From the NCBI GenBank assembly GCA_013239625.1, contig MU054925.1, positions 1,000,829 to 1,064,828 on the forward strand: a stretch of 64,000 bases of DNA. Direction: 5' to 3'. This document shows, in pieces, positions 11,501 to 53,168 of this stretch. Both the position numbers and the translations under genes were made by a program. The notes beneath the pieces are model-generated. The model searched no databases and was not told the origin of the DNA. It worked only from the letters and a program-made list of their open reading frames with translations. The DNA is from Lama guanicoe (Eukaryota). The number at the start of each line of letters is the position of its first letter. Position 1 is the first letter of the stretch.

Positions 11501-14500
11501 GAGCATACAGTGGAGGAAGCAGGAAAACTAGATCCCTTTTCCCTTTGAAATTTCCTCTGAAAAAATAACCAAAGTGCTGTTTAGTGAGTCATTTCATAAT
11601 TAAGAGTTGTTGATTCCAAATTTCTTACCTATTTATCTTTTTGAAGGATAATAGTACCCTTTGGCTTAATTTTTAATTGGCTTTTGGTTCAAAATAGAGT
11701 TTGTGAAGAAATTAGTGGAATTAGAATTGTTACAGTAACATTGCCAGTTTCTTATCTTATTATAATTGCCAAAATTCCAGCCATGGTCTTGAGAAGACAG
11801 GCCGCCTTGGGCAAAGGGCCTGGCCCCTGTGATATGTGGGTCGGGCTGGGCTTATTTGGGGCGAGGGCAGTAGCCAAGGCATCAGGAGAGAGGCCAGCTG
11901 CGGCTTCGCTCTAGACCTGCCTCAGTCTGCCTCTGGAGGTAGTGATCTCAGGGGGCCTGGTTTCCTCCCATGTGGACTGCGGGCCCTAGTACTCCTGCTT
12001 AGCTTTCTGTGAGAACCAGGTGAGATGCTGTACCTCAGATCCTTGTGCAAAGTCTAACACATAGTCAGCCCTCGAGTCAGGCAATTGGCACCAGAGTGCC
12101 CTAAAAGAGAGTCTCTGTACAGGGAAGAAAGAGTCCCCACCAGCCCCGACTATCTGGGTATGAATTGACCTTGTGGCCAGTGCAAGATCCTGGTCTCATG
12201 AGGGCCGGCCCACAGGGTATGAACACATTTGGTACTGGAGCATGAAGAGAGCGCAGCCCAAACATAAAAGTATATGTTGGGCATATCAGAGAGGATTCCT
12301 CTTGTTGGAGGCAGAGACCCAGAAGGGAGGAGCCTAAGCCTGACCCGGGACAGGAAGGGTAGGGTCACAGAGTCAGAAGAGGAACAGCAGTACCTGTGAT
12401 GGCCATCCCTGTGGTCCAGGGTGCCAGGCTTAGGCTTTTTACATCTGAGCATCCTTTTCACCCTCAGCAGTGTGGCTAGGGAGATGTTGGGCTAGGCAGC
12501 CAGCCTGGTGTCACCGTAACCAGACTGACACCTCGGCCACCTCCACATGCAGAATGCCTATGTTCTGCAGGGTCATTGGGGCAGCAAATGGCAGACAGTG
12601 CAGGGAGGATGCCCAGCTTCCAGTGGAGCCTCTCTGGGTTCTCTTGGCTCACAAGGCACGGCAGCCAGTGGGGTCCCAGAAGGTGGCAGGTCTCACCTGC
12701 CTGTGGGGCGCCCCACCAACTCTCTCAGACAACTCCATTCCCCTATCTCATCCTAGGTGGCAGGTCTCACCTGCCTGTGGGGCGCCCCACCAACTCTCTC
12801 AGACAACTCCATTCCCCTATCTCATCCTAGGTGGCAGGTCTCACCTGCCTGTGGGGCGCCCCACCAACTCTCTCAGACAACTCCATTCCCCTATCTCATC
12901 CTAGGTGGCAGGTCTCACCTGCCTGTGGGGCGCCCCACCAACTCTCTCAGACAACTCCATTCCCCTATCTCATCCTAGGTGGCAGGTCTCACCTGCCTGT
13001 GGGGCGCCCCACCAACTCTCTCAGACAACTCCATTCCCCTATCTCATCCTGAACCCACCTACCTCCATCTGATGGTCTGCGTACCTGCACCTCTTACCGT
13101 GATTAGGCAGTGATTGCCCTTGGGGGATTCCTACCTTCCTGCCCTCAGAAAGGAACTGGACAGAGAAAAGCGAGACAGAAGTGGTCATCAGAGCCTCCCA
13201 TGGTCCATCCCCAGGTCCCAGCTCATTCCCCGCCCACTTGCCAAAGGGGATAGGAAGAGGGGCACACTAGCAGCAGCTCCCCAGGGGCTGGGGCTGGGTG
13301 AGGAAGACTATGAGAGAGAATGTGCAAGTGAATGAATGAATGAGGGAGTCAATACTAAAAGGGGAGAAGGAATAATGAACACGGAATGAATGAGCAGGGG
13401 TGGGGTGGGGGTATGAAGTGGGGGGCAGAACAGCGTGAAAAAAGGAGTCAAGGTCTCAGGCTGCAGCTGCATTCCAGCATCCAGGCTTAGAGAGTCTGCA
13501 GGCCTGCCACCCATGCCATCCCCATCCTCCAGAAGACTTGGGACTCAGCCTGGTCTCTCCGCTCTACCTCTAACGGCCTCAGTGCCCTGGACCCTTCTCC
13601 CCCAACCCCCAGAGGGCTGGGGAAGGGCCTCCAGCAGCCAGGTCAGGTGTTTATTTTTAGCTCTTACCTCACATGCCTCCTCCTGCCCTCCCTCCCTCCC
13701 TTGCTCCCTGCTATAGCAGAGCTGGGAACAAGAGGGCCGACAATTTGGCAGCCCTTTCTGCAGCCTGGCTGCCTCTGTGAGTAAGCGTGGGAAGGAACAA
13801 AGCCCTGGGGAGCATGTGACATGCTCTGCTGAGGGCTGGGCCTCTGGGCTCAGGTAGGAAGGCCACTGCAGGGGTTGGGTCTTAGCTCTTGGCATCAGCT
13901 CTGCCGCCTCCATCCAGTCCACCCTTCCAAGGTGCTCTTACTTTGTTTGGACTGTGGCTTTTGGGGTGGGGTCTGCAGGCTAGAGGTGGAGGTCAGAGGT
14001 TTGCCAAGCCACCAAGGTGAGCCAAAGCAGATGACCTCACCTTGAGAGGCCTAACCTGGGATGGCTGTGTACATGGACCCAAGATGGAGTCAGGGCACTG
14101 TTGCCTTGGGCCAGCCCCCTGTCTAGGCCTGGATCCTAACCACATCATGCTGATCCTGGGACTGGGGAAGTGACTGTTTGCTCATTTCCAGAACTCTCTC
14201 TGAGCCTCTGTCTACCCATCCCACCTCTCTAGGATCTTTTCTCCATCTCACAGTCCTCTCTGTCATGGAGGGATTTCCGTTGTGACCCCAGGTGATGCTG
14301 GGGCACATGTGGAGGGGATTCCTGATTCAGCCCATCCAGCACTCTCCCCCAGCTCCTTTAGGACAGACCCTGTCAGGCACCAAGTGAGTCCAAGGTGCAG
14401 CAAGTGGCCAGCACCCATTGCCTCATAGGAGTTTGTAGAGGGATACATAGAGCATGAGATAAGGTCTAAAGGCGTCAGCACGTGTGCTAGGGCCAGGCCC

Positions 14501-26500: not shown

Positions 26501-29500
26501 TCCAGCAGCCCCGGTTCCCACCTCCAGCTCCGCAGTACGCTGCAGGTAGCAGTGGACCAACTCAGAACGAATTCCCAGCCCACCAAGCACCCACCTACCC
26601 TGGCCCCAGCACATACCTAGCACCTGCCTTTCCTCCTGGTGCCAGTTACCCCACTGAGCCTGGCCTGCCAAGCCAGCCGGCTTTCCATCCCACAGGCCAT
26701 TATGCAGCCCCAACACCCATGCCAACCACACAGAGCACCCTTTTCCCAGTCCCTGCTGACAGCCGTGCCCCCCACCAGAAGCCACGCCAGACATCACTAG
26801 CCGACTTGGAGCAGAAGGTGCCAACCAACTATGAGGTGATTGCCAGCCCCGTTGTGGCCATGTCTTCAGCCCCATCTGAAACCAGCTACAGTGGCCCAGC
26901 AGTAACCAGCAGCTATGAACAAGGCAAGGCCCCTGAGCTGCCACGGGCCAGTGACCGTAGCAGTGTGAACCTGAGCCCAGCCCCTACCTACCCTTCCGAC
27001 TCACACTACGCCAGCCTGGAGCAGAACGTCCCCCGGAACTATGTGATGATCGACGACATCAGTGAGCTAACCAAGGACAGCACCTCCACTGCCTCCGACA
27101 GCCAGCGACTGGAGCCCCTGGGGCCGAGCAGCACTGGGCGTCCAGGAAAAGAGCCAGGAGAACCAGGTGTCCTTGAGGGGCCCGTACTGCCCTGCTGCTA
27201 TGCCAGAGGGGAGGAAGAATCTGAGGAGGACTCTTACGACCCACGTGGGAAGAGCGGCCATCACCGGAGCGTGGAGAGCAATGGCCGACCAGCCAGCACC
27301 CACTATTACAGTGACAGTGACTACCGACATGGGGCTCGAGCAGAGAAGTATAGTCCAGGCCCTGTGGGGCCCAAGCATCCCTCCAAGAGCCTGGCCCCGG
27401 CTGCCATCTCCTCAAAGCGCAGCAAGCACCGGAAGCAGGGAATGGAGCAAAAGATCTCCAAGTTCTCGCCTATCGAAGAGGCCAAGGATGTGGAGTCAGA
27501 CCTGGCCTCCTACCCCTCCCCTGCAGTCAGCAGCAGCCTGGCCTCTCGGGGCAGGAAGTTCCAGGACGAAATCACCTATGGGCTCAAGAAGAACGTGTAC
27601 GAGCAGCAGAGGTACTACGGGGTGTCCAGCCGGGACCTGGTGGAGGAGGATGACCGCATGTGTGGTGGGAGCAGCCGGTCCCGAGGGGCCTCTGCATACA
27701 GTGGGGAGAAGCTGTCCAGCCATGACTTCAGTGGCCGGGCCAAGGGATATGAGCGGGAGCGGGAGGCTGTGGAGCGACTTCAAAAAGCAGGCCCCAAGCC
27801 CTCATCTCTGAGCATGGCCCATGGCCGGGCCCGGCCCCCTATGCGGAGCCAGGCCTCCGAAGAGGAGAGCCCTGTCAGCCCCTTGGGGCGGCCCCGCCCT
27901 GCTGGGGGCACCCTTCCCCCTGGGGACACCTGCCCGCAGTTCTGCTCCAGCCACTCCATGCCTGATGTCCAGGAGCATGTCAAGGATGGACCGCGGGCCC
28001 ACGCATATAAGCGTGAGGAGGGCTACATCCTGGATGATTCCCACTGCGTAGTTTCCGACAGCGAAGGTAATGGCAGCTGGGGGTGATTTTGGCAGATGCT
28101 CAGTACGTGGGGTGCCTGCCTGCCCAAGGGGCCCTGGGCCCTGAGATGTCCCAGTGGGGCCTGGCCTGGTGCCTCATCCAGTGGGCCCTGCTGCAGGGTG
28201 CCCTTCCTGCCTGCTCCACCTGCCCCCTGGCCCCAGTTGTGGGGGGTGGGGGCTGGGGGCCTAGTGTTAAGCTTGTGGCTGTGGCACCCACTCTCTGTTT
28301 TCCTTGCATGGCTTCAGCTGGGCCTCCCCCTGCGGCCAGCCCNNNNNNNNNNNNNNNNNNNNNNNNNNNNNNNNNNNNNNNNNNNNNNNNNNNNNNNNNN
28401 NNNNNNNNNNNNNNNNNNNNNNNNNNNNNNNNNNNNNNNNNNNNNNNNNNNNNNNNNNNNNNNNNNNNNNNNNNNNNNNNNNNNNNNNNNNNNNNNNNNN
28501 NNNNNNNNNNNNNNNNNNNNNNTGAGCCCCCCGAGGAGGGCCTTTGGCCACATGATGAGGGTGGCCCGGGCCGCCATGCCTCAACCAAGGAACACCGGCA
28601 CCACAGTGACCACGGGCGGCACTCAGGCCGCCACGCTGGTGAGGAGCCAGGCCGGCGTGCTGCCAAACCACACGTTCGGGACCTGGGTCGCCACGAGGCC
28701 CGGCCTCACCCTCAGCCCAGCTCCACCCCGGCCATGCAGAAGAAGGGTCAGCCTGGGTACCCTAGCTCCGCTGAATACTCCCAGCCATCCCGAGTCCCGT
28801 CAGCGTACCATCATGCCTCTGAGAGCAAGAAGGGCTCCCGGCAGGCCCACTCAGGGCCCGCTGCACTGCAGCCAAAGCCAGAATCCCAGCCGCAGCCGCA
28901 AGGTCGGCAGGCAGCTCCAGGGCCACAGCAGTCACAGCCGCTTCCATCCAGGCAGACGCCTTCAGCGGCAGCATCTCGCCAGCCACAGACACAGCAGCAG
29001 CAGCAGCAGCAACAGCAAGGCCTTGGGCTACAACCCCCGCAGCAGGCCCCGTCACAGGCTCGGCTGCAGCAGCAGGGCCAGCCAGCTGCTCGGGGCCCGG
29101 CCCCTGCTGCCAGCCAGCCAACAGGGAAGCCTCAGCCGGGCCCCTCAACAGCCACAGGCCCCCAGCCAGCAGGACCGGTAAGTAGGGCTCCAGTACATGG
29201 ACCCTCCCCAGGGTGAATGCTGGGACTGCAGCTGGACAGCTCCTTGGTTCCAGGCTGGGCATGAGCAGAGTTGACGGGGGGTAGCTCAGCTATTGGTTCT
29301 GTGTTGCAGCCACGGGCAGAGCAGGCAAACGGCTCTAAAGGGACTGCCAAAGCACCGCAGCAGGGGAGGCCTCCTCAGGCCCAGCCACTGCCAGGACCTG
29401 GACCTGCAGGTGAGCCTACCCTTGGGCGCCCTTGCCTATGACCCAGAGTAGCTGGGCTGCCATCTCCCTACACTCACTGGCACCCTGAGCCCCCCTGCAC

Positions 29501-30364
29501 CGCGTGCCCTCACTGCTCCCTGAGAACATGCCCAGTGGGCTGCAGGCCTCGCCAGTAGAGATGAGCCTGGGGTTAGAATGAGCCGGTGGAGTCACCAGCA
29601 CTGGGGCCTTAGGGCCCAGGCAGCTCTGGGCAGGGAAGCTGGAAGGGACCGGGGAGCTCTTAACTCTCTCCTTCCTTTCCCTCTTCTCCTCTGCCTTCTC
29701 ATCTTCCTCTGCCCTTTCCTCCCTTTCTCCTTTGTCTTCCTCAACTTCCTTTGTTCTGCTTCCTCCCACCCCTGTTCTGCTTGTTTTTAATCTTTCTTTC
29801 TTCATTCCTCTATCCTCCTCCTCAACCTCCATCTCACAGGGTCCCCGTGTTCAGATTCCCTCGTGACTGCTCTCCCGCTCAGACCCTGAAGAGCCAGGCC
29901 AAGCAGCCTCATGATGATTTCTTTCTCCTTAGGTCTGAAGGCTGGAGCCAAGCCTGGAGGGACCCCAGGAGCTCCTACCGGCCCGCCAGGAGCCGACGGG
30001 GAGAGCGTGCTCTCCAAAATCCTCCCTGGTGGGGCAGCAGAGCAGGCCGGCAAGCTGACGGAAGGTATGCACTGCCTACAGCTGGGGCCATGGTGCATGG
30101 CTGCTCCAGGGCCCTACTCTGGCAGGGGTCAGGTCTGGGGAATGGTTCCGGGCCCCGTCACCCAGGCACGGGCCAGCCCAAGGGCCCACCTGCTGCTGCC
30201 TAGTCGTTCTCTGGGTGGTCCCTGCCCCTCCAGCTGAGCTTGGCTTCACTGTGCCAAATGGCCATGATTAGGAAGGAGTCTAGCCCAATTTTCTGTTGCT
30301 TCTCTCTCTTTTCTATTTCACAGCTGTGTCTGCTTTTGGCAAAAAATTCTCCTCCTTCTGGTGA
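7668..30364 (+). CDS. BSN: Bassoon presynaptic cytomatrix protein, partial gene (coding exons 3-10; exons 1-2 lie upstream of the window)
   Basis: Spliced ORF: 7668-8552, 16208-16654, 17100-23759, 25990-28066, ~28378-29177, 29310-29409, 29933-30064, 30324-30364. Piccolo-type Zn fingers (EWLCLNCQ, CPLC..CTTC..CNLCGFNP), coiled coils, C-terminus AVSAFGKKFSSFW*. All visible junctions are GT-AG and phase-compatible. Confidence 0.98.
12681..13050. repeat. Perfect tandem repeat, 5 x 74 bp (minisatellite) in BSN intron 3
   Basis: Unit aggtggcaggtctcacctgcctgtggggcgccccaccaactctctcagacaactccattcccctatctcatcct starts at 12681, 12755, 12829, 12903 and 12977. Confidence 0.97.
16208..16654 (+). CDS. BSN: BSN exon 4 (end of Zn finger 2, KASP heptads)
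   Basis: ttacag|AAAACTGAGTGG ... ACAGAG|gtcagt; 447 nt; KTEWLCLNCQTKR. Confidence 0.95.
17100..23759 (+). CDS. BSN: BSN giant exon 5 (6660 nt, coiled coils 1-2; N-run 23444-23711 inside)
   Basis: ctgcag|GAGCTG ... AGCCAG|gtatgg; forms the core of the 2296-aa ORF. Confidence 0.95.
25990..28066 (+). CDS. BSN: BSN exon 6 (coiled coil 3)
   Basis: tctcag|GTGTCG ... GAAG|gtaatg; VSALPPNGLVRKVKRTLP...VVSDSE. Confidence 0.95.
28378..29177 (+). CDS. BSN: BSN exon 7 (5' end hidden in N-run 28343-28522; start approximate)
   Basis: Visible part 28523-29177 reads EPPEEGLWPH...PAGP, with donor CCG|gtaagt. Start estimated from the recalled human sequence length. Confidence 0.85.
28992..29018 (+). repeat. 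Coding (CAG)6-CAA-CAG-CAA repeat = Q9 in BSN exon 7
   Basis: Read directly; ORF shows QTQQQQQQQQQGLG. Confidence 0.9.
29310..29409 (+). CDS. BSN: BSN exon 8
   Basis: ttgcag|CCACGG ... GCAG|gtgagc; PRAEQANGSKG. Confidence 0.92.
29660..29835 (+). repeat. Low-complexity CT-rich tract in BSN intron 8
   Basis: ~175 nt, almost all pyrimidine. Confidence 0.85.
29933..30064 (+). CDS. BSN: BSN exon 9
   Basis: ccttag|GTCTGAAG ... GAAG|gtatgc; ...SKILPGGAAEQAGKLTE. Confidence 0.93.
30324..30364 (+). CDS. BSN: BSN exon 10 coding part (stop TGA 30362-30364; exon continues to 30378)
   Basis: tcacag|CTGTG...TTCTGGTGA; donor CAGG|gtgagt at 30379. Confidence 0.93.
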
Positions 30365-30747
30365 CCATGCCCTGCAGGGTGAGTATGAACTGCCTATACC
30401 CAGTTTCCCCCTGGGAAAGGCATGAGGCGCTCCTGTGGGGGCCCTGCAGGGTCTTCTGGGAGGACTGTAGTCTTCAATAGCGGATGATGTGGCCAGAGCT
30501 GCAGTGTCCTTCCTATGAGTGTGGTAGGAGGAGGAGGAAAAGGAGAGACACTGTGCACAGAGGCCCCATTATGGGGCCAACTCAATAGAGATCCCTAGCA
30601 AAGGGAAGCCAGGGCCAATGATCCCTTGTCCTTCTCCACCACCCTGAGCCCCCACAGAGCTCTCATAGCTATGAGTTGACATTGGGTTATAGGTGGGGCC
30701 CCCTATGATGCAGCTCCTTCCAGCCCTCCACTGTAAATACTCCACAG

Positions 30748-30840
30748 GCTCTTGAAGAAATGAAGGGAGATGATATTATTGCTGTGGAAAAATCTCTGGA
30801 GTCAGAGGCCTGGGCGCAGCTCTGGACTCTGCGTATAACA
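30748..30840 (+). other. BSN: Predicted BSN non-coding exon 11 (3'UTR, 93 nt)
   Basis: ccacag|GCTCTT ... ATAACA|gtaagt (consensus donor); human BSN is recalled to have 12 exons with the stop in exon 10. Confidence 0.7.
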
Positions 30841-31761
30841 GTAAGTATCAGGACCAGGGTGGGGGTGGGACCTGGCCTGGCTGACCAAACCCACCCAGTT
30901 CCTACAACGAGGAGGGGCCTGTTGGGCTTCCTGCAGCTGGGATGGGCCCAGCAGCCACTTGGAAGGCAGAGACAACTCAGCTGGCTGAGGTGACTCCAGT
31001 AGTAACCTTGGGGAAGGGCCCAAAAAAGCCAACCACACCCAACTAGGGGTCTGTATGCCAAGAACTGATTCAAAGCCTCATCCCTGAGGTCTGGTACAGT
31101 AGCTTTGCTCCAGACATTCAAATGAAGCCAGAACCCCCAAACCCTGCCGAGCTTAGCAGCCCTTGGTGTGAAGTCAAGATACTATTGACTCAAGACCAGC
31201 AAGAAAGAAAAGCAGAATGATTGGAGAGGCAGACAGGAAAGGGACAAAGAGGACAGGGAGGCACTTGGACAGGAGGATCCAGACCAGGTCAGCCCAGGGA
31301 GAGAGTGGAAGAGCCTCAGGATGGCTCTGTCTGGGCTGCAGTGGCCAAGGCAGGATCAGAAGCCTCTGCCTAGAGCCTTCTCTGGCCCTGGCCCTGCCTC
31401 TGTGGGTGAAGGAGGAAGTGGTGCATCATCAAGGATGGCAGGGAGGAGAGCCTGGTTACTGGCACTGCTCTGCACACAGCCAGGTACCACATCTTCCCGT
31501 TCCATAGCCTTGGGGCCCTCCTCCTGCCCCTTCTTTGCCATTTCTAGGACTAAGAGTATGGAGGTTTGGGTGTTTCTCATGGTGGACAGGCATGTGTGTG
31601 GTAGGCCCCAGCATTCAGCAGGCAAATCACCAGGGAGCGCTGGGGCCAGCAGAGGTCCTTGCTCAGGCCAGGCCTGCTTGTGGGAAGGAGTTGGGTATAG
31701 TGTCAAGAGGGCCACCTGTCTCTGCAGGACCAGTGAGGGTGCTGGAAAGGCCCAGTTTTCT

Positions 31762-32250
31762 ATCCATTTATTCAGCAAATGTTTGTCAGGCTCTAGGTGG
31801 GTGCTGAGCCCTGTTCCAAGTGCTGGGGATATAGCAGAGAACAAGACCAAGTCCCTGCCCTCTGAAGCTGACAGTCCATTAAGAGAGGCAGTGAGCAAAT
31901 AAGTTAAAAAGAATTACTTTACAAGGTAATTTCTGAAGATAATAAGTGTTCTGAAGGCAGGGAAGCAGGATTATGGTGGAAGGGTCTACTCTAAAGAAAG
32001 TGGTCAATACCAGGTAAAGCTCAAGGGAGGAGAAGAGGCTGCTGTGGGAGGTGCCCACGGAAGGGAACAGCACCAACGGAGGCTCTGATGACACAGGTAG
32101 GCCTCAGGGACAGACAAAAGGCCAGCAGAGCCAGAGCCACAGAGGAGGGGAGGTACGGTCAGGGGTGAAGTCAGAGGGGGCGTGAGCCAGCTGGGTTGGG
32201 CTTTGTAGGCAAAGGTAAAAGAGCCCAGAATTTATTCTAATTACAGTAAC
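31762..32250 (-). mobile_element. L2 3' end, antisense
   Basis: atccatttattcagcaaatgttt...tgctggggatatagcagagaacaagac...gtccctgccctc. Confidence 0.75.
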
Positions 32251-32982
32251 CACAGTGCAACACCCCAGCATTCTTCCTTCTCTCACCCCACGACAGTGGG
32301 CTCCCTACCGCTTTCCCACTTAGCCAGATGTTTCCTCTGAGCCGCCCTGGAACAGATGTGAAATTAGAAAGAGTGTTGAAGGGAGGGGAAGGAGGGGCAG
32401 CCCATGGGCCAGGTCCATGGCAGGACCCACCTTGGGTTTAGGGCCAGGGCTGTGTCACTGGGGAGGGAAAGGAACCCCTGGTGTGGCTTTGTTCCATGTC
32501 CTGCCACATGATGTGTGTGGGCCATGGAGACCACTAACTTTGTAGTTAAAAGAATCTCCCTCGAGTTCTGGCATTTGGCTGATGATTGGGCCAAGCGGTC
32601 ATTGCTTCTGTGAGTGTCCATCTCCTGGTGTCTTTTGTGGAAATTTCAGAAGTGGGTTGGGAGGGGCTTGCCATTTTAAACAAAATTCTATCTCCCTCAT
32701 TTTTAAGAGAAACAAAAAGCATCATGTATTAAAGAAATGGCCCTTCCTGGCCAGCCTGATTCTTCTTTCTTCCTGACTTTCTCTTTGTGACCTCAAACCT
32801 GCCTAAGCACCCATCTCCCCATGCCTCAGTCTGGTGGGATCCTGTAGGTGCGGAGGCGCTAGGCCGTCAGCACGGGGCAAACAGCTGGGAGGAGCATGAG
32901 TGGGAAGCAGCTTCCACAGTTCTTGACAAAATCCTTCTGTCTTTCCTTCTTTCCTTCCCCCTCCCTCCTGCCCTCCTCCAAG

Positions 32983-35900
32983 CATCTACAATCTGACAAA
33001 CCCTTGGCCCAAAGACTCACACCAGGTGGGACGTGGCAGGTGGGCCTCAGTTGAGGACAGGATGTTTTCTAACAGCAGCTGCCGGGGTGAAGCATCTGCT
33101 GGAGAAGTGGGACCACTGGCCTGGGGCCACCTGGGAGTGTCTTTTCAGAGACCCTGCTCTCCTCAGGGGGCCGCCTTCAAGGCATAGCCATCGCTGGGAG
33201 GGAGGAACCGTCTTGGGAAACCCTGCCATTTGGTGGTCCTGCTGTTCTTTCCACAGCCGCCTCTCTGCAGCCTGGCCAGCCAGGCTTCTAATGCGTTATA
33301 CGCAGAGTTTGGGCGCACGCTGCCTGTTTCTGATGGACGTCGCCCTCCCTCCACAACGCCAGAAGTTTTTCCACAGCCTTGGAGAGGGGCTTTGACTGAG
33401 GGCTGGGGGCCCCGGGCTCCGTTTCCTTCACATTCCAGCTGGCCCGGATCCCTCTGTGGCCACAGGGCCCTGCTCCCCTCACCCTGCCCTCTGGGTGACA
33501 CCGGAGCAGACTTCTGTGTGGCTAGCGTGGTTTCGGGAGAACTTTAAAACATTAGGACCTAACACTGTCTCATCGCTGAAATAAGAGGCCATAGCACCGA
33601 AAAGCAGCGTGGACGCCGGCTGAGGCTTCTCCCAGCCCATGGGTGGCCGCGTGCTAGCACACCCGCCACCATCTTCAAAGCCATCCCCCCAGTCATCATG
33701 AGCATCCCNNNNNNNNNNNNNNNNNNNNNNNNNNNNNNNNNNNNNNNNNNNNNNNNNNNNNNNNNNNNNNNNNNNNNNNNNNNNNNNNNNNNNNNNNNNN
33801 NNNNNNNNNNNNNNNNNNNNNNNNNNNNNNNNNNNNNNNNNNNNNNNNCTTTACTCTCTTCTCTCTCTCGGCTCAGCTCCTTGCCTCTCCCCTCCACCAC
33901 CACCTTGTGACTGAAGGTTTGGTTTCCTCTCTGCTCTGTCCCTGCTCAGCACAGGGAGAATGTTGACTTAGAAGCAATAGTGGGCAGCAGGCCACCAAGA
34001 GCACAACCCCAGGGCAGGGTCTAGGGAGGCCCCTCAGCCCGCCTCTGTTTACCGTGCAACTCCAGTCCTTCTTAAGCCATCACCAGTGGACGTGCTCAGA
34101 GCAGAGGGGCTAGGGCTTCTGCCAGCCGACGGAAGGGCCCAGAGCCCTGCGTTGGGGAGTGTGGCACCATCCATCCACCCAGTGGACTGGGCGGTGGTCC
34201 TTCCCAAGGCCCTTCCCTTGGGGACCTCCCTTCATCTTGGGCACAGCCGCAAGTCTCATCTCTAACGTTCTATGCAATGAAATATAAACCCTCAAAGACA
34301 ACTGTTAATATTTAATAAATTCCATGTTATGTATAAGGAGTTAATTGCAAACCTGCAATTGAGAAACTGGATAGATATGCTCATATCAAACCCCTCACCT
34401 CCCCACCCACCCTGCCCCTNNNNNNNNNNNNNNNNNNNNNNNNNNNNNNNNNNNNNNNNNNNNNNNNNNNNNNNNNNNNNNNNNNNNNNNNNNNNNNNNN
34501 NNNNNNNNNNNNNNNNNNNNNNNNNNNNNNNNNNNNNNNNNNNNNNNNNNNNNNNNNNNNNNNNNNNNNNNNNNNTGCTTGGAGTTCTTTTTGTCTCAGA
34601 ACCTCTCCTTCAGGAGTTCTTCTAGCTGACTTTTGCACGAGCTAGTGAGGACCCACTGAAATTGCTGCCCGAGCATGCCAGGCCATAGGCCAGGCAGTGC
34701 AAGGCACCACACACCTTGCCGGTTTCTCTGACCAAGATGTCTCTGGAGTAGACGTGCTGGTGGGAGCCTGCACAGGATGTGTGTGCATGAACATTCAGAA
34801 GGTTTGCTGTAGGATTTCCATCTGTAAGTCTTTCCCCCTCTTACACAAGCCCTGAGCCAGAGACATCTGGCCACCCCTTCCTAGCGAGGCACTGCTCAAG
34901 GGCAGAGCTGGGCTGCATCTGTAGTCAGAAAGACAGGCCACGGGCAGAGCCTGGCTGTGTCCTGGGACCCCAGCTCCTGACTGCACCTGCTCCCTGCCTC
35001 TCCTCTCTGGCTGGGAGGCTCAAAGGTCTGTGATCCAGGAGATCTAGGCTGGGGCCAGAGGGTCAGGGAGTGTTCAGGAAGAGTTGGACCTTTGGCATTT
35101 GTGGTGAGGACAGCTGACAGTATCATCTTGGACTGGAGTGAGTGTTCACATAGACCGTGGCTCAAGCTGAGTTTCTTGGGAAGCTTCTCAATAACAAAAC
35201 ATACAGAAGATTCTGTTGTGACACTCTGCATCTGTCCCCAAGACCCAAACTCCCTTCCAGCCCCCGTCTCTGAAGCCTAAATATCCCATTGCTCATTAGC
35301 TTCTCTACAACTGAGCCAAGAGGGCAGCAGGTGGCAGCTGCCTGACCTCTCCAGGCCCGGCCTTCCTCCAGAGTGCTCTGGTCTGTACCATGCAGTTCTC
35401 AGGGGTCCACGTTTCTCATGCTTTCCTGTAAGATCTACACACCCTTCAGAGGGATTCTGGCCCACCTCTGGTAGTCGTGGATAAGATAGGAGGCTGTCAA
35501 CCCCCGTGTTGGGCCCAAGACCCTGTCCTTTGGGATTTGGGCTTCACCCATCCCATGGGACACCTGCCTCATCCCAGAGATCAGGCTTGGGCTGGATGAG
35601 GCCATCTGTGTAAGGGCTGAGGGAGTCCACCATCCAGCACCTCGGACCACCCAGGGCTCAGTCTGTATGGAGATGTGCCTAGTGGCTGGATACGTTGGGG
35701 ACCAAGGCAGTGATCCTTCCCACAAAAGGCCAAGGGATGAGGCCAGGAGCAGGAAACAGGCAGGGAGATGACAGCAGGTCAGCCTCAAATGTTGACTTTC
35801 CAGCAAATCTCCTTTCTGGCCAACCTGATTTTGAAATTTCTGACATCTGCCACTCCCTACCCTGCAGTGTACCCACAGGACACATCTGTACCCATCACCC

Positions 35901-36976
35901 CTTGTGAAGGTGGCTGGAGCAGGCCTCTGGGCCACAGGTGTCCTGGCCCTTGTGTAGATACTGCTGTGGCCAGAGGCTGAAGGACTAGGATTTGGTGGGG
36001 AGCATTGAGCACATCTCTACGTGGGCAAGGCGGTCTCTGGGATGCACTATAGACCTTCTCCACAGCTCCCCACCCCCAGTGTCATGAGCAAGGGCACTGC
36101 CTCCCCTGTCCACTTCAGGGCCCAGTGTATCCACTTCACAGTGACACCTCCCTTCCCCACCATCCACTTAGTCCTTGGGAAGAGAGTGTGGTCTCAGGGC
36201 CTATGATGAGAGGGCAGCAGTGGCAGCAACTATGGCCTGTCTTCTGGAGCCTGTGGGGAGTTTTCCAGGCAGATCCTTTGCCATGGCAGCAGGGTCCTGG
36301 CCTGTCTGCCCCTCCCCTGCCATCATGCTCCCAACCCCCATTCTGTAAATACGCATCATCATGGACTCCAACAGGGTCAGGGGGACAGGCCTGATGAACT
36401 GAAACTCCTCAGAGATATCATTTCTGTCTCCCTGGGTAGCAGCAGCCCTGCTGCCATGTGCACTGGGGTGGCACTGGAGAGCCATGGAAATTGTGAGCTA
36501 TTGTGTGTGTATGCATGTGAACAAGTGTGTGAGTGTGTGTGTGCGCGCGTGTGTGTGCGCACGTGTGCGCACGTCTGCCTCATTTGGCCTCGGATCAAAT
36601 CAGCTCCTTCTCTCTAAGTGCAGTGCCCTGGAGAGTGGTGGCTGCCCAACGCCTTTCCTCTGCTAGCTTCCATGTCTTGTTTTTGCTTTCCCCTCACTNN
36701 NNNNNNNNNNNNNNNNNNNNNNNNNNNNNNNNNNNNNNNNNNNNNNNNNNNNNNNNNNNNNNNNNNNNNNNNNNNNNNNNNNNNNNNNNNNNNNNNNNNN
36801 NNNNNNNNNNNNNNNNNNNNNNNNNNNNNNNNNNNNNNNNNNNNNNNNNNNNNNNNNNNNNNNNNNNNNNNNNNNNNNNNNNNNNNNNNNNNNNNNNNNN
36901 NNNNNNNNNNNNNNNNNNNNNNNNNNNNNNNNNNNNNNNNNNNNNNNNNNNNNNNNNNNNNNNNNNNNNNNNNNNN
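32983..36976 (+). other. BSN: Predicted BSN terminal exon / long 3'UTR (end probably inside N-run 36699-36976)
   Basis: Pyrimidine tract 32931-32980 followed by ag|CATCT; AATAAA at 34314-34319; miRNA seed sites and Pumilio elements. Confidence 0.55.
36502..36573. repeat. Imperfect (TG)n/(GC)n alternating purine-pyrimidine repeat in the BSN 3'UTR
   Basis: tgtgtgtgtatgcatgtg...gtgtgtgtgtgcgcgcgtgtgtgtgcgcacgtgtgcgcacg. Confidence 0.85.
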
Positions 36977-38349
36977 GTTTCTGAAACGGGAAGGCTTAGC
37001 CAGAGGAACAAATCCCCAGGCTGTGACAATCCTGTCTCTTCACAGTTAGGGAAAAGGCAAAGGGGCAGAAGTACTGGCAAGGCCCTGGCTGAGTTTACAC
37101 CAATCTGTCCAAAGACAATGGGCCCCTCCACAAAGTGCCCCAGGACAGGTCCAACATTTGGACCAGGAGGGAGCAGTTAGCTCGCTGCTGGAACTGTTGA
37201 GATACGGTGTCTCCTCCGCCTGTGGGTGTCCGGGCTGCACAGCTTTCTGGGGCCTGGTCCCGGGAAGGAGGTGAGTGGGTGCTGCCCCCTGGTGTTGCCA
37301 ACAAGCCCTACACCTATCTGCCTTGCTGTGTGCCCTCCAACCCCCAAACTCTGGGGAGCTACTAGGTCTTAGCTCTTCCCCAAGACCGGAGAGCCTCCTT
37401 ACCAAAGTAACCCAGAGTTGCTAGAAAACTTGAAAGACACAGGTAAATGAAAAGAGGATCAGCCTCATCTCTGGCCTTTCCCCGAATTAATATCTTGATG
37501 CATGTCCTTCCTATTTGTGCTTTTCTTTTTCATTTTAAACAGAAGCCAGAAGGTACAGTATCTTCTGCTTTCTAGCCTCCTGTTTGTTTCTACATGTTCA
37601 TGCAGTACTTAGATGTTCATACTCCAATGCTCAGCCTCCAGAGAGCTGCATTATGAGTTTACAGCCAGTCTACTGCACGTGCCCTGAAGGACAGGCACCA
37701 TGTTCCCAGTTTTCCTGTTATAAAGAACGCTGAGGAATATCCTAGTTTCCCACTTTCCACCCAGATTGGTGGCTCGGGCCACTCTTTCTGCTCCCAGTTC
37801 TGGCCTTAACAGTCCTGCACACACCAGACACTCACAAATACAAGTGGCCTCAGAAAGTGGAAACTGTTTTTACTTAACTAGTCCGATGTGGTTCATGGGG
37901 AAGGGGAAGCCTCAGGCCAGTCAAGTAGGATCTCACTCAAAGGCTAGGCAGGGCATATGGAGTCAGAACCCTGAGGTATGGAAGACCAGCCAGTCTCAGG
38001 GTATACGGAGGATGGGACATCGATGCTGTCCTGATAGCTGCCCAGTCTCTCCTGCCCTCTTCTGGCAACATAACCCACCCAGTCCAGTGCCACAGTGCCC
38101 AGGGAGCCTGCCTGCCCAGGTTTTTCTTTCCACAGGAAGCTCCCTGGTTCTGGGTGGAGCCTGACCCCACCAAGCCCTCTGCCCCAAGAGCTTGGGCTGA
38201 GGCCTGGGGAGGCAGAGGCCCTTTTGCTCACGATCCCAGCAAGGTGCCACTGAGCGGGGCGGGTGATGGCTGCTGGAACAGATAGCTTCTGGAGTAGGCC
38301 TGGTGGCCGATAAAACCAGGCAACACCCCTGTGAACTTGGCACCGTCCT

Positions 38350-39430
38350 TTGCCCCACACCCCAGAGTTCCGCGCGCTCGGCCGGGAGCGCACCTCCGCC
38401 CTTCTTTTCTCGTTGGCCTGAGAGCCCCTCCAGAGCAGGGCCTGGAACCATCTGGTGAATGTTTGCCTTGTAATGGACCAGAAGGACCGACAGTCAGCCT
38501 CCGGGCTGCGGGAGATCTCTGCTGGGGATGGCATCGGCTCGCACCCCGCTCCTCAGGCCCCGCCCCTCATCTCTCGACTTTACTACCCTCGCTGGACTCA
38601 GTCCTGCCCCGCCCCGCCTCAAGTCCTCGAAGAGCCCTTGGTCCGCAGAGCTCTCAGGCCCCGCCCCCCCAGTGCTTAAGACCCAACAGGCCCCGCCCCC
38701 CGATTGCTTAAGACCCACCCCCGTCCCGCCTCACCCCCTTTCCCGTGGGCCCTGTTGTTCCTCACGGGCCTCCCCCCTCCCTAAAGACCCACTCTTTATT
38801 CTGTTTCCACAGCGCAACCCCTTCTCCTCGGAAATCCCATTCCCGCCGCTCCCAGTAACAGACATGGGAATTGGCCCAAAGAGCCCTCCTCCCACCGACC
38901 TAGTCCGCCCCAAAAGGACTCGCTCCTTCCCTTCAGGACTCTGGGCCGCAGCTCCTTCTTCCTCCCAGGCCCCACCCCCTTCCCGTAGAAGCCCCGCCCC
39001 CTGCTAAGGGTCCTCGCTCATTCGTCGAAGGTCCCGCCCCGCTCACTAAGCGGCGAGGCCGCGACGGAGACAGGCGGGGCCGCTCTCGGCTCCGCCCCTG
39101 GAGTCTCACTTCCGGGCGCCAGCCCGTAATACCACCCGGACCGCCCAGGGCTAACATGGAGCGGCAGGTGAGGGATCGGCTCGCGGTTCCCGTGGTCGTT
39201 GCAGCCCGGGCTGGGCCTGACCCTCGTGTGTCCCCTGCGCAGGTGCTGCTGAGCGAGCCCGAAGAGGCGGCGGCGCTGTACCGGGGCCTTAGCCGCCATT
39301 CCGCGCTGAGCGCCGCCTGCCTGGGCCCGGAGGTCACCACGCAGTACGGGGGCCACTACCGGACGGTGCACACTGGTGTGTATATGGAGAGGAATCGGTG
39401 GCGGGCTCTTTACGGGGCCATGCACTCGAG
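38350..39430. promoter_or_regulatory. APEH: APEH CpG-island, TATA-less promoter with many GC boxes and an ETS site
   Basis: Repeated CCCCGCCC boxes; ACTTCCGG at 39108-39115; CpG-dense. Confidence 0.8.
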
Positions 39431-42400
39431 TGGAGAGGAGGAGGGTGTGAAGGCAGGCTCGCTGCCTGACAGTGCACACGGATGTGTGGAGGAAACTGGG
39501 CTTCTAGAGTGTAGGAGTGGAAGGGTGAATCCCCCAGAGGTCCTTGCACACAGGTGTATATGGGGCTCTTTGGGGTGTTACGGGATGGTGCCAATGGGTG
39601 CAGAGTGTGGGCCTTGTAAGAGTCACCCTCATCATCCTATCCCATATCCACCCTCAAGGTTCTAGAGTGGATGCTTGGGGCAGTAATGGTTACACTCCAA
39701 GATATTGTCAGCTCAGGCTCTGCAGGCCTAGTCTTGAGTTGTGGCCAAGTGATGCCCATCCTGCCCCCAGAATATCTGAAGACAGATTGAGGGAGGTGGG
39801 CTGGGCCTGCTTGGGGTTGGGTAGAGCAGCCTGTGCTGGGACTAGTCAAGTTGAGCAGCCTCGTGCCTCTCCTCGCAGAGTGGATCCAGAGGGACCTGGA
39901 ACGCATGGAGAACATCCGATTNNNNNNNNNNNNNNNNNNNNNNNNNNNNNNNNNNNNNNNNNNNNNNNNNNNNNNNNNNNNNNNNNNNNNNNNNNNNNNN
40001 NNNNNNNNNNNNNNNNNNNNNNNNNNNNNNNNNNNNNNNNNNNNNNNNNNNNNGCCTTTTACAAATGCCCACCATGTGCCTTGGTGTCAGTAGGGCCTAG
40101 AAGGGAGGCTGGGAGCCAGGTTCCTGCCCCTTGGGAGCTCAGGTGGTCTCTAGTGACATGGTCATAAACACTGAAGGCTTGCTCCAAACTTGGGCCAGGT
40201 CTAGAGGCCTTGCTCGAGGGAGGGGATGCAAGGCAGCTGCCATGGTGGCGCTAGAAGGGGTGCAGGGATGGATGTAGGCCAGAGCCTCAAGAATCTTGTC
40301 AAAGAGGTTGTGGCCAGTAAGGGGACAGGATGGGCTATTACTGGGTGGGAGGTAATTCTAACCTGCTACCCCATATCCTCCTTAGGCTGCTGAGCAGAGA
40401 ATCTCCTTCAGGCAGCATGAAAGCTGTGCTGCGCAAGGCTGGAGGCCCAGGCACAGGGGAGGAGAAGCAGTTTTTGGAAGTAAGTCTGCGTGGGACCAGG
40501 TGGTGGGCAAACAGGCTCAGTCCCACAGATGAGGCTCTGTTAAAGGACAGCAACCTCACTCCCAGATGTCCTCAGGTCTGGGAGAAGAACCAGAAGCTCA
40601 AGAGCTTCAACCTGTCGGCGCTGGAGAAACATGGGCCAGTTTATGAAGATGGTGAGGCAGCCGGCTGGTGAGCAGGCAGGGTGGACAGGAGGGGCAGCCA
40701 TAACCCAGGGCTCCCCCTGATCAGCCCTCCTTGCACCCAGACTGCTTTGGCTGCTTGTCCTGGTCGCATTCGGAGACACACTTACTATACGTGGCAGAGA
40801 AGAAGCGTCCCAAGGCTGAGTCCTTCTTTCATACCAAAGCCTTGGACATCAGTGGCAGCGATGACGAGATGGCTAGGCTGAAGAAGCCAGACCAGGCCAT
40901 TAAGGTGCTGTGGCCGTGGCGAGTCCACAAAGGCCCTTCAGGGCAGCCTGGGGCTCGGTCTGCTTTCTACGCACACTGCATCTATCAGAACCAGGGAGGC
41001 ACTGGCTTCTAGAGGGCAGGGCAGGGCAGGGCAGGGTCCTGCAAGACAAGCTGGGCATTGAATGTCTTGTATTCTCAGGGGGATCAGTTCTTGTTTTACG
41101 AAGACTGGGGAGAAAACATGGTTTCTAAAAGCACTCCTGTGCTCTGCGTGCTGGATGTCGAGAGTGGCAACATCTCTGTGCTTGAGGGGGTCCCTGAGAG
41201 TGTGTCTCCCGGACAGGTTAGTGCTGACTCTGCCCACATCACTCCTGGAGTCTGAGGGCCCTGCCTGAGCTACTGCCCCTTATCCACATCTGCCCTGTGG
41301 TCTTGTTTACAGGCATTCTGGGCCCCTGGAGACACAGGTGTGGTGTTCGTCGGCTGGTGGCATGAGCCCTTCCGGCTGGGCATCCGTTTCTGCACCAATC
41401 GAAGGTGAGAACAATCGAAGGGGCAGAGCAAGGGTGCCTTGTAGCTCAGACTGGCCTTGAAGCTGAGTGTCTCTCTGATGGTTCCAGGTCAGCTCTATAC
41501 TATGTGGACCTCATCAAGGGGAAGTGTGGTAAGTGCTGGCATCTACCTGTGCTTTGCTGACACACAATGGCCCTGACAGCCTGCGTGATGCTCACGTTTT
41601 TGTCTCGTCCAGAGCTCCTCTCAGATGACTGTCTGGCTGTCTCTTCTCCTCGGCTGAGCCCAGACCAATGTCGCATCGTCTACCTGCAGTTCCCATCTCT
41701 GGTCCCCCATCAGCAGTGTAGCCAGTTGTGCCTGGTGAGCTGGGGTGGGGTGGGGGGAGGTCAGCAAGAAGAGGGGATGGTGGGTGAGAGCTGAAGGGTC
41801 ACCTTCGTCTCCCCACGGGCCGCTCAGTGGACTTCCTTTCGTGGGTGCAGTGATGGTGTGAGTTCTGCTTATCCTTTCAAGGCAGGGCCCAGAGGCTGAG
41901 AGTGCTGGCATGGTGGCCTCTGCACAACCCAGACTCACCACCTAGAGAGCATCCTCTGTCTACACGAATGCTCCTCCCATTGCTTCTCACCTGCACATGG
42001 CCAGGCTCTGCAAGGGCCTGGGATGTAGCGGGCAGTTACAGAGTCTTTGCCCACGAAGAGCTCTGGGCTCCTAGTGAAAGTCAGAGGCCCCTCGGACAGC
42101 TGGTCCAGGTCACCAGAAAGGAGATACACCGGGCTCCTCTCAGGTCCTCCCCTCCCTTCCCTGAGGCTATGCTAGGCTATCATGGAAGAGGACAGGTGTA
42201 CAGAGCTCCATGCCCTGAGGGTACTGCCGGTCCCTTGGTGGGCCTGACCACTATGTCCTCTTGCAGTATGACTGGTACACCAGGGTCACCTCGGTGGTGG
42301 TGGACGTCGTGCCTCGGCAGCTGAGAGGTAAGGGGTGTGTGGCTGGTTGAGTGCAGTGGAGCCTGCAGCTCTGTTTTCCTGCCAGCTGTTATCCTGGCTC

Positions 42401-48578: not shown

Positions 48579-53168
<4,590 letters not shown>

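What the first reader, a model, noticed from the sequence alone, without database searches (positions are those of the whole stretch)
30362..33054. Stop-restart ORF behind Bassoon: a Kozak ATG 2 nt after the BSN stop opens a 58-codon ORF running in frame through both 3'UTR splice junctions
Seen: ...TGG TGA cc ATG... The A of the stop codon is the -3 purine (ACCATG). With the predicted junctions 30378|30748 and 30840|32983 the ORF reads MPCR|ALEEMKGDDIIAVEKSLESEAWAQLWTLRIT|HLQSDKPLAQRLTPGGTWQVGLS*. The first junction falls on a codon boundary, exon 11 is exactly 93 nt and stop-free, and the stop is reached only in the last exon (TGA 33052-33054). The same frame is also open through the whole of exon 10 upstream. 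Inference: termination-reinitiation (or a -1 slip at GGC AAA AAA) could clear the downstream exon-junction complexes and shield this synaptic mRNA from NMD, and/or make a micropeptide. Alternatively these are vestigial coding exons. Caveats: a 58-codon open frame can arise by chance in GC-rich DNA, and the exon 12 acceptor is inferred.
Basis: partly seen in the sequence, partly recalled or inferred. Interest (0 to 1): 0.72.

Follow-up and report, generated by a model that had tools for sequence, protein, structure and literature searches.

The report
Bassoon's 3'UTR introns and small ORF
Bassoon's mRNA has two introns after its stop codon, which likely marks it for decay once it is translated, and the short reading frame that starts just behind the stop is real but is most likely a by-product of conserved RNA sequence, not a working shield or a micropeptide.

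Summary
In detail: TGA 30362-64, CC, ATG 30367, 58 codons over junctions 30378|30748 and 30840|32983. ORFs called in other mammals' assemblies cross both junctions at the same residues. Human and mouse annotation put the last junction 104 and 107 nt after the stop (window: 107). So BSN has two 3'UTR introns, like ARC; this is already in annotation. For it: a second lineage has the same stop-NN-ATG spacing, only this frame is open through exon 11 (shuffle P 0.096), and the one indel seen in that exon is 3 nt. Against it: a third lineage has Val at the ATG; amino-acid changes in exon 11 look neutral (9 of 23 conservative, 34% expected); exon 12 shifts frame in both relatives that use this acceptor; there is no TURBS core, slippery heptamer or stimulatory structure; BSN is absent from a 7,264-ORF Ribo-seq table. 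The -3 purine and the open frame in exon 10 come almost for free. Best reading (0.6): a conserved non-coding exon that leaves an EJC and an incidental ORF. Selected reinitiation that clears the EJC: about 0.2. No brain Ribo-seq, RNA reads or DNA alignment could be examined.

The parts
29933..30064 (+). BSN exon 9 (coding). The -1 frame is also open here; UGGGG at 30030-30034 lies 73 nt before the stop in the mRNA, one letter off the TURBS core
30324..30378 (+). BSN exon 10: last coding exon plus 14 nt of 3'UTR
   Evidence: ten coding exons in mouse
30340..30346 (+). C-AAA-AAA run proposed as a slip site; not a canonical X XXY YYZ heptamer, no stable structure 3' of it
30362..30364 (+). BSN stop codon TGA
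30367..30369 (+). ATG of the downstream ORF (-1 frame relative to BSN); Met in P0009/P0014/P0018 and P0019, Val in P0020
30379..30747 (+). First 3'UTR intron (GT-AG), 14 nt after the stop
   Evidence: crossed by P0009, P0014, P0018, P0019
30748..30840 (+). Exon 11, 93 nt, conserved 3'UTR exon; open only in the ATG frame; 90 nt in the P0014 lineage
30760..30762 (+). Second in-frame ATG (exon 11 codon 5), a possible back-up start; Met in 9 of 11 representatives that cover it, 2 of the 9 being called starts and so uninformative
30841..32982 (+). Second 3'UTR intron, 107 nt after the stop (distal class); retained in P0009
32983..33054 (+). Start of exon 12 (AAG acceptor) to the ORF's TGA at 33052-33054; frame not kept in relatives
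33257..33547 (+). Alternative exon 12 acceptor (CAG|33257), used by P0013/P0019; the ORF would run 131 codons to a stop at 33545

Best explanation
BSN has a conserved 93-nt exon between two introns in its 3'UTR; splicing of the second likely leaves an exon junction complex about 80 nt behind the stop, which is predicted to couple the mRNA's decay to its translation as in ARC, and the 58-codon frame is likely a by-product of nucleotide-level conservation. Shown: the two introns, their distances (14 and 107 nt), the ORF, conservation of exon 11 across mammals, loss of the ATG in one lineage, loss of frame in exon 12. Inferred: EJC deposition, NMD sensitivity, and that the constraint on exon 11 is on RNA (splicing signals or protein-binding sites). 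The terminating ribosome would clear the first EJC by itself. Skipping of the AAG acceptor or retention of the second intron could tune the output.
For: Annotation: human BSN 12 exons, farthest 3'UTR intron 104 nt; mouse 107 nt; zebrafish bsnb 527 nt; all carry the same Type code as ARC (PMC7310861 S3 Table). Exon 11 changes in 13 representatives: 23 distinct, 21 single-base, 9 conservative and 11 radical against 34% and 47% expected with no protein selection (binomial P 0.66 and 1.0). Conservation continues where the ORF cannot explain it: into the first intron codons of all 10 representatives that read into the intron, and in P0014 exon 12 matches 12 of 13 residues in the ORF frame and 12 of 13 in another frame after an indel. 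P0020 has Val at the ATG, yet its exon 11 differs from the window's at 1 of 31 residues. P0014 leaves the frame after 13 codons of exon 12 and P0017 after 3. No UGGGA in 120 nt upstream, no canonical heptamer, folding z-scores 0.0 to +0.9. No BSN row among the 7,264 Ribo-seq ORFs; controls found.
Against: Stop-NN-ATG spacing is the same in a lineage whose intron differs clearly from the window's (P0009/P0014/P0018). Only the ATG frame is open in exon 11 (P 0.096). The single indel seen in exon 11 is 3 nt, and 104, 107 and 527 are all 2 mod 3. No stop gain was seen against 1.8 expected (P 0.16), though the search could only return open frames. The lineage without the first ATG keeps Met at exon 11 codon 5. 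The substitution test has only 23 changes, ignores the tree, and has no synonymous sites. I found no data showing that BSN is an NMD target, and non-PTC 3'UTR introns were reported as mostly not NMD-sensitising in a cancer line (bioRxiv 2024.01.10.575007).
Confidence: 0.6

Rival explanations
1. Selected stop-restart. A fraction of ribosomes that finish Bassoon reinitiate at the ATG 2 nt on (or at the second ATG in exon 11), translate towards the last junction, strip the distal EJC and so spare the mRNA from NMD. The act of translation matters, not the peptide.
For: Same spacing in two distant lineages; exon 11 open only in this frame; back-up ATG kept where the first is lost; loss of frame in exon 12 and a neutral-looking peptide are what this model allows. 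Precedent: the SRSF7 split ORF, as described in PMC9661723.
Against: Reinitiation after long ORFs usually needs a special element and reaches 3-20% even with TURBS (PMC10275272); none was found. Reinitiation after uORFs did not much reduce NMD in one study cited in PMC9661723. ATG is Val in P0020. Rough joint chance for one gene is 0.01-0.05 (ATG nearby times open frame), and human has 489 distal-intron genes, so several such cases are expected by chance. No BSN row in two ORF tables.
Confidence: 0.22
2. The ORF encodes a functional micropeptide, or exons 11-12 are remnants of a longer coding C-terminus.
For: The 3' two-thirds of exon 11 is nearly invariant as protein (12 invariant columns in 14 rows); the 3-nt indel keeps frame.
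Against: Neutral substitution spectrum; C-terminus and length vary (58 here, 59, 133 and over 203 residues in relatives); no Pfam family above cut-off in 6 proteins and no PDB match for P0014; none of the cluster members of the 13 hits carries a name.
Confidence: 0.08
3. The ORF is translated weakly as an ordinary dORF and raises Bassoon translation, without effect on mRNA stability.
For: Translated dORFs enhance main-ORF translation regardless of peptide, and only 6 of 1,406 human dORF peptides were conserved (PMC7459409).
Against: That paper proposes new ribosome recruitment on the spacer, and the spacer here is 2 nt; BSN does not occur in its 9 supplementary files (no control gene run).
Confidence: 0.06
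4. A programmed -1 frameshift at GGC AAA AAA gives Bassoon an extended C-terminus that runs through exon 11.
For: The -1 frame is open from exon 8 (stop at 29336) to 33052 (8% of recodings for exons 9+10), and is also open in exon 10 of P0020.
Against: No X XXY YYZ heptamer in the last 90 codons; no stimulatory structure (z 0.02 and 0.90); exon 10 openness is expected in 60% of recodings; no relative found for the exon 9 -1 frame (a weak search).
Confidence: 0.04

Closest known systems
ARC-type distal 3'UTR-intron mRNAs (EJC-dependent NMD of normal transcripts)
   Same: [quoted passage not shown]
   Different: ARC's junction is 742-757 nt away and its decay is shown; BSN's is 104-107 nt away and I found no test of its NMD sensitivity. 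BSN also has an ATG 2 nt after the stop.
SRSF7 split ORF (reinitiation removes downstream EJCs; seen as a passage of review PMC9661723)
   Same: A start codon behind a stop whose translation would clear EJCs.
   Different: There the stop is a premature one in an alternative exon and the effect was tested; here it is the normal stop of a very long ORF and nothing is tested.
TURBS termination-reinitiation (caliciviruses, influenza B)
   Same: Stop and start within 20 nt and out of frame (PMC10275272).
   Different: No UGGGA core (motif letters recalled; nearest is UGGGG at -73) and no unusual structure upstream.
Translated dORFs (Wu et al. 2020, PMC7459409)
   Same: Small ORF in a 3'UTR with a poorly conserved peptide.
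   Different: Translation not shown for BSN; spacer only 2 nt; the ORF spans splice junctions.

Membership tests
Distal 3'UTR-intron genes | [quoted passage not shown] | tested here: met
   107 nt, two introns; junctions crossed by relatives' ORFs; human 104, mouse 107
Distal 3'UTR-intron genes that are NMD targets (ARC type) | mRNA rises when UPF1, UPF2 or EIF4A3 is lost | not testable with these tools
   Supplements searched held no usable table: no data rows; no hit even for control genes
TURBS reinitiation | Stop and start within about 20 nt, out of frame | tested here: met
   2 nt apart, -1 frame
TURBS reinitiation | 18S-complementary core (UGGGA, recalled) upstream of the stop | tested here: not met
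   0 exact matches in 120 nt of spliced mRNA; one UGGGG at -73
TURBS reinitiation | Structured element presenting the core | tested here: not met
   z +0.38 against 300 shuffles for the 105 nt around the stop; pseudoknots not modelled
Programmed -1 frameshift | X XXY YYZ heptamer (definition recalled) | tested here: not met
   None in the last 90 codons; best is C AAA AAA
Programmed -1 frameshift | Stimulatory structure just 3' of the site | tested here: not met
   z 0.02 (60 nt) and 0.90 (90 nt)
Translated dORF | Periodic ribosome footprints in frame | tested here: inconclusive
   No BSN row in PMC10032668 file 2 or PMC7459409 supplements; I take these sets to be mostly non-neuronal (recalled); the human-brain set was not held
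Conserved micropeptide | Start, frame and stop conserved | tested here: not met
   Val at the start in P0020; exon 12 frame lost in P0014 and P0017
Conserved micropeptide | Purifying selection on amino acids | tested here: inconclusive
   9 of 23 changes conservative against 34% neutral; no DNA for dN/dS

The most novel reading that the evidence does not exclude
A cellular mRNA uses termination-reinitiation behind its normal stop, after a reading frame of some 3,900 codons and without a TURBS, to sweep a distal EJC off its own 3'UTR. The rate of reinitiation, with a back-up ATG in exon 11, would then act as a tunable switch between NMD and survival for a dosage-sensitive synaptic gene.
Probability: 0.2. 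Interest if true: 0.8.

Novelty: new member of a known kind. Interest (0 to 1): 0.38.

Why it matters
BSN is loss-of-function intolerant (pLI 1.0, PMC10439262) and its mRNA is enriched at presynaptic terminals (PMC11446172). Its normal transcript breaks the 50-nt rule in human and mouse, so how it copes with NMD is a real question, and variants in exon 11 or its splice sites could change dosage. The two introns are already in annotation. The stop-adjacent ORF is not described in the papers I searched. If reinitiation there protects the mRNA, it would be a rare cellular case of stop-restart after a long ORF, testable with one reporter.

Tried and rejected
RNA runs: 24 listed, 19 holding part of 32983-33700; none could be laid on the region, so they are no evidence. 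Metagenome scans found nothing (0 matches; 592 pattern hits, 0 confirmed). Word-index protein searches: one search was run in a non-BSN frame of exon 7 by mistake (4 hits); exon 9 in the -1 frame gave 0 of 28 candidates; the exon 12 piece gave none. Exact look-up of the unspliced ORF: not in the collection. ESM Atlas gave no result. Rfam over 29900-38000: 0 matches. Mouse translatome supplement: 0 Bsn hits in one file, no control gene, uninformative. NMD-target supplements were uninformative. Mudge 2022 and Duffy 2022 were not held; bioRxiv supplements are closed, and the human-brain ORF table could change the verdict. Earlier findings of the scan: none. One search used an exon 9 end that was 1 nt off, so its frame table upstream of exon 10 is wrong; one search corrects it. 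Rejected as evidence: the -3 purine, the 3n length for the NMD model, and the open frame in exon 10.
Full report
Observation. The stop is TGA 30362-30364, followed by CC and ATG 30367. With junctions 30378|30748 and 30840|32983 the ORF is 58 codons and ends at TGA 33052-33054. The junctions lie 14 and 107 nt after the stop. In the spliced mRNA the ATG frame is the -1 frame of BSN; it is the only frame without a stop in exon 11, and it has a second ATG at 30760.

Are the junctions real? First, annotation: S3 Table of PMC7310861 (supplement rows and text passages seen) lists human BSN ENST00000296452 with 12 exons and the farthest 3'UTR intron 104 nt from the stop, mouse Bsn with 107 nt and zebrafish bsnb with 527 nt. 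All three have Type 2, as ARC does. [quoted passage not shown] The mouse gene was described with at least 13 exons, ten of them coding (PMC2133055, passages). Second, a phmmer search of 1.84 billion representatives with 30 residues (23 from exon 11, 7 from the intron) gave 13 hits, all unnamed ORFs from Logan or ENA assemblies. Of the 13, P0014 crosses both junctions at the same residues, P0009 crosses the first and retains the second intron, P0017 crosses the second, P0013 splices to a second acceptor at 33257, and 9 read from exon 11 into the intron with no sign of splicing. The P0014 lineage has an exon one codon shorter, which fits 104 nt. The organisms are not named.

Chance. Among 261 ATGs in the window's BSN introns and UTR, 47 open 58 codons or more, 82 open 35 or more and 144 open 18 or more. 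Dinucleotide shuffles of exon 11 stay open in this frame in 9.6% of 5,000 trials. An ATG within 6 to 12 nt of a stop has P 0.09 to 0.16. The joint chance is roughly 0.01-0.05 per gene, and human has 489 genes of this class. The -3 purine is forced by the stop codon. Openness of exon 10 in the -1 frame occurs in 60% of synonymous recodings (8% for exons 9 and 10 together). To satisfy the 50-nt rule at the last junction an ORF needs only about 18 codons, so the 3n length and the crossing of junction 2 are not predictions of the NMD-shield model.

Conservation of the start. The ATG site can be read in 5 proteins from 4 clusters. P0009, P0014 and P0018 (same N-terminus, probably one lineage) and P0019 have Met; P0018 and P0019 begin two codons earlier, which fits the same stop-NN-ATG spacing. 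P0019 matches the window at 31 of 31 exon 11 residues and 96% further on, so it is a near relative and not independent. P0020, an unspliced read-through, has Val there with the same four codons to the donor. That is Met in 2 of 3 lineages, the window's included. The second ATG is Met in 9 of 11 representatives that cover it (Val in P0006, Leu in P0011); two of the nine are called starts and could be GTG or TTG. P0020 keeps it.

Conservation of the peptide. Exon 11 is well conserved (82-100% over the matched stretch). I scored the 13 representatives against the window: for P0009 and P0014 only the last 22 codons, to skip the indel, and for six others only the 19 or 27 codons they cover. This gave 23 distinct changes, 21 reachable by one base; 9 are conservative and 11 radical by BLOSUM62, against 34% and 47% for unselected missense changes (P 0.66 and 1.0). 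About 1.8 stop gains would be expected and none was seen (P 0.16), but the search returns only open frames, so misses cannot be counted. Conservation runs on into the first intron codons in all 10 representatives that read into the intron. In exon 12, P0014 matches 12 of 13 residues in the ORF frame, then 12 of 13 in another frame; P0017 leaves the frame after 3 codons and runs to 203 residues. The simplest reading is constraint on nucleotides. Pfam (6 proteins) and PDB (P0014) gave nothing that would tie the peptide to a known domain.

Mechanistic signals. Reinitiation after long ORFs usually depends on extra elements, and reaches 3-20% with TURBS (PMC10275272, section 9 read whole and passages). 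There is no UGGGA in the 120 nt before the stop (motif recalled; UGGGG at -73), no X XXY YYZ heptamer, and no region folds better than its shuffles (z 0.02 to 0.90). BSN has no row in the 7,264-ORF table of PMC10032668, where 565 dORF entries and the control gene MIEF1 were found (supplements searched), nor in the supplements of PMC7459409 (no control; text passages). I recall these sets as mostly non-neuronal, and the brain data set was not held, so this is weak. A review (PMC9661723, passages) gives the SRSF7 split ORF as a case where reinitiation removes EJCs, and also cites a study in which reinitiation did not protect from NMD. A preprint (2024.01.10.575007, abstract and passages) reports that true 3'UTR introns are mostly not NMD-sensitising in HCT116 cells. 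I found no direct test of BSN as an NMD target (searches; supplements 58 and 61 uninformative). Other papers seen: PMC10439262, PMC11130481 and PMC11446172 as passages; PMC8216458, PMC10804635 and PMC8597091 as supplement searches only.

Verdict. The architecture is real and conserved, and already in annotation: BSN is a distal 3'UTR-intron gene like ARC. I put 0.6 on a nucleotide-constrained exon whose EJC couples decay to translation, with the ORF incidental; 0.22 on selected reinitiation that clears the EJC; 0.08 on a micropeptide or vestigial coding exon; 0.06 on a translation-enhancing dORF; 0.04 on a -1 frameshift. The ORF itself did not turn up in my literature searches. An unbiased mammalian DNA alignment, neuronal Ribo-seq and one reporter series would settle it.

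Noticed in passing
window 33257: Second 3' splice site in the last exon, 274 nt after the AAG acceptor at 32983; used in a near relative (P0013/P0019).
   Followed up: partly
P0009; window 30841-32982: A form spliced at the first 3'UTR junction but retaining the second intron; it would lack the distal EJC. The first five intron codons' worth of sequence is conserved across relatives.
   Followed up: partly
window 12607-13050: Tandem repeat with a 74-nt period, most copies 100% identical, upstream of the large exon 5.
   Followed up: no
window 28087-29181: A non-BSN frame over exon 7 stays open for hundreds of codons (364 listed, part masked) and has called ORFs in relatives at 64-76% identity; probably a shadow of the GC-rich coding frame.
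   Followed up: no
window 34314: The only AATAAA between 33000 and 38600 lies about 1.3 kb into the last exon, while the annotated human UTR is 4,060 nt; a proximal poly(A) site is possible. Parts of the region are N.
   Followed up: no
window 1-64000: No dispersed repeat family of 40 nt or more with many copies was found in 64 kb, unusual for a mammal.
   Followed up: no
window 38904-39665 and 50878-51538: A further gene seems to start near 39 kb, and a 62-nt duplicated stretch lies near 51 kb; APEH and MST1 follow BSN in human (recalled, not tested).
   Followed up: no
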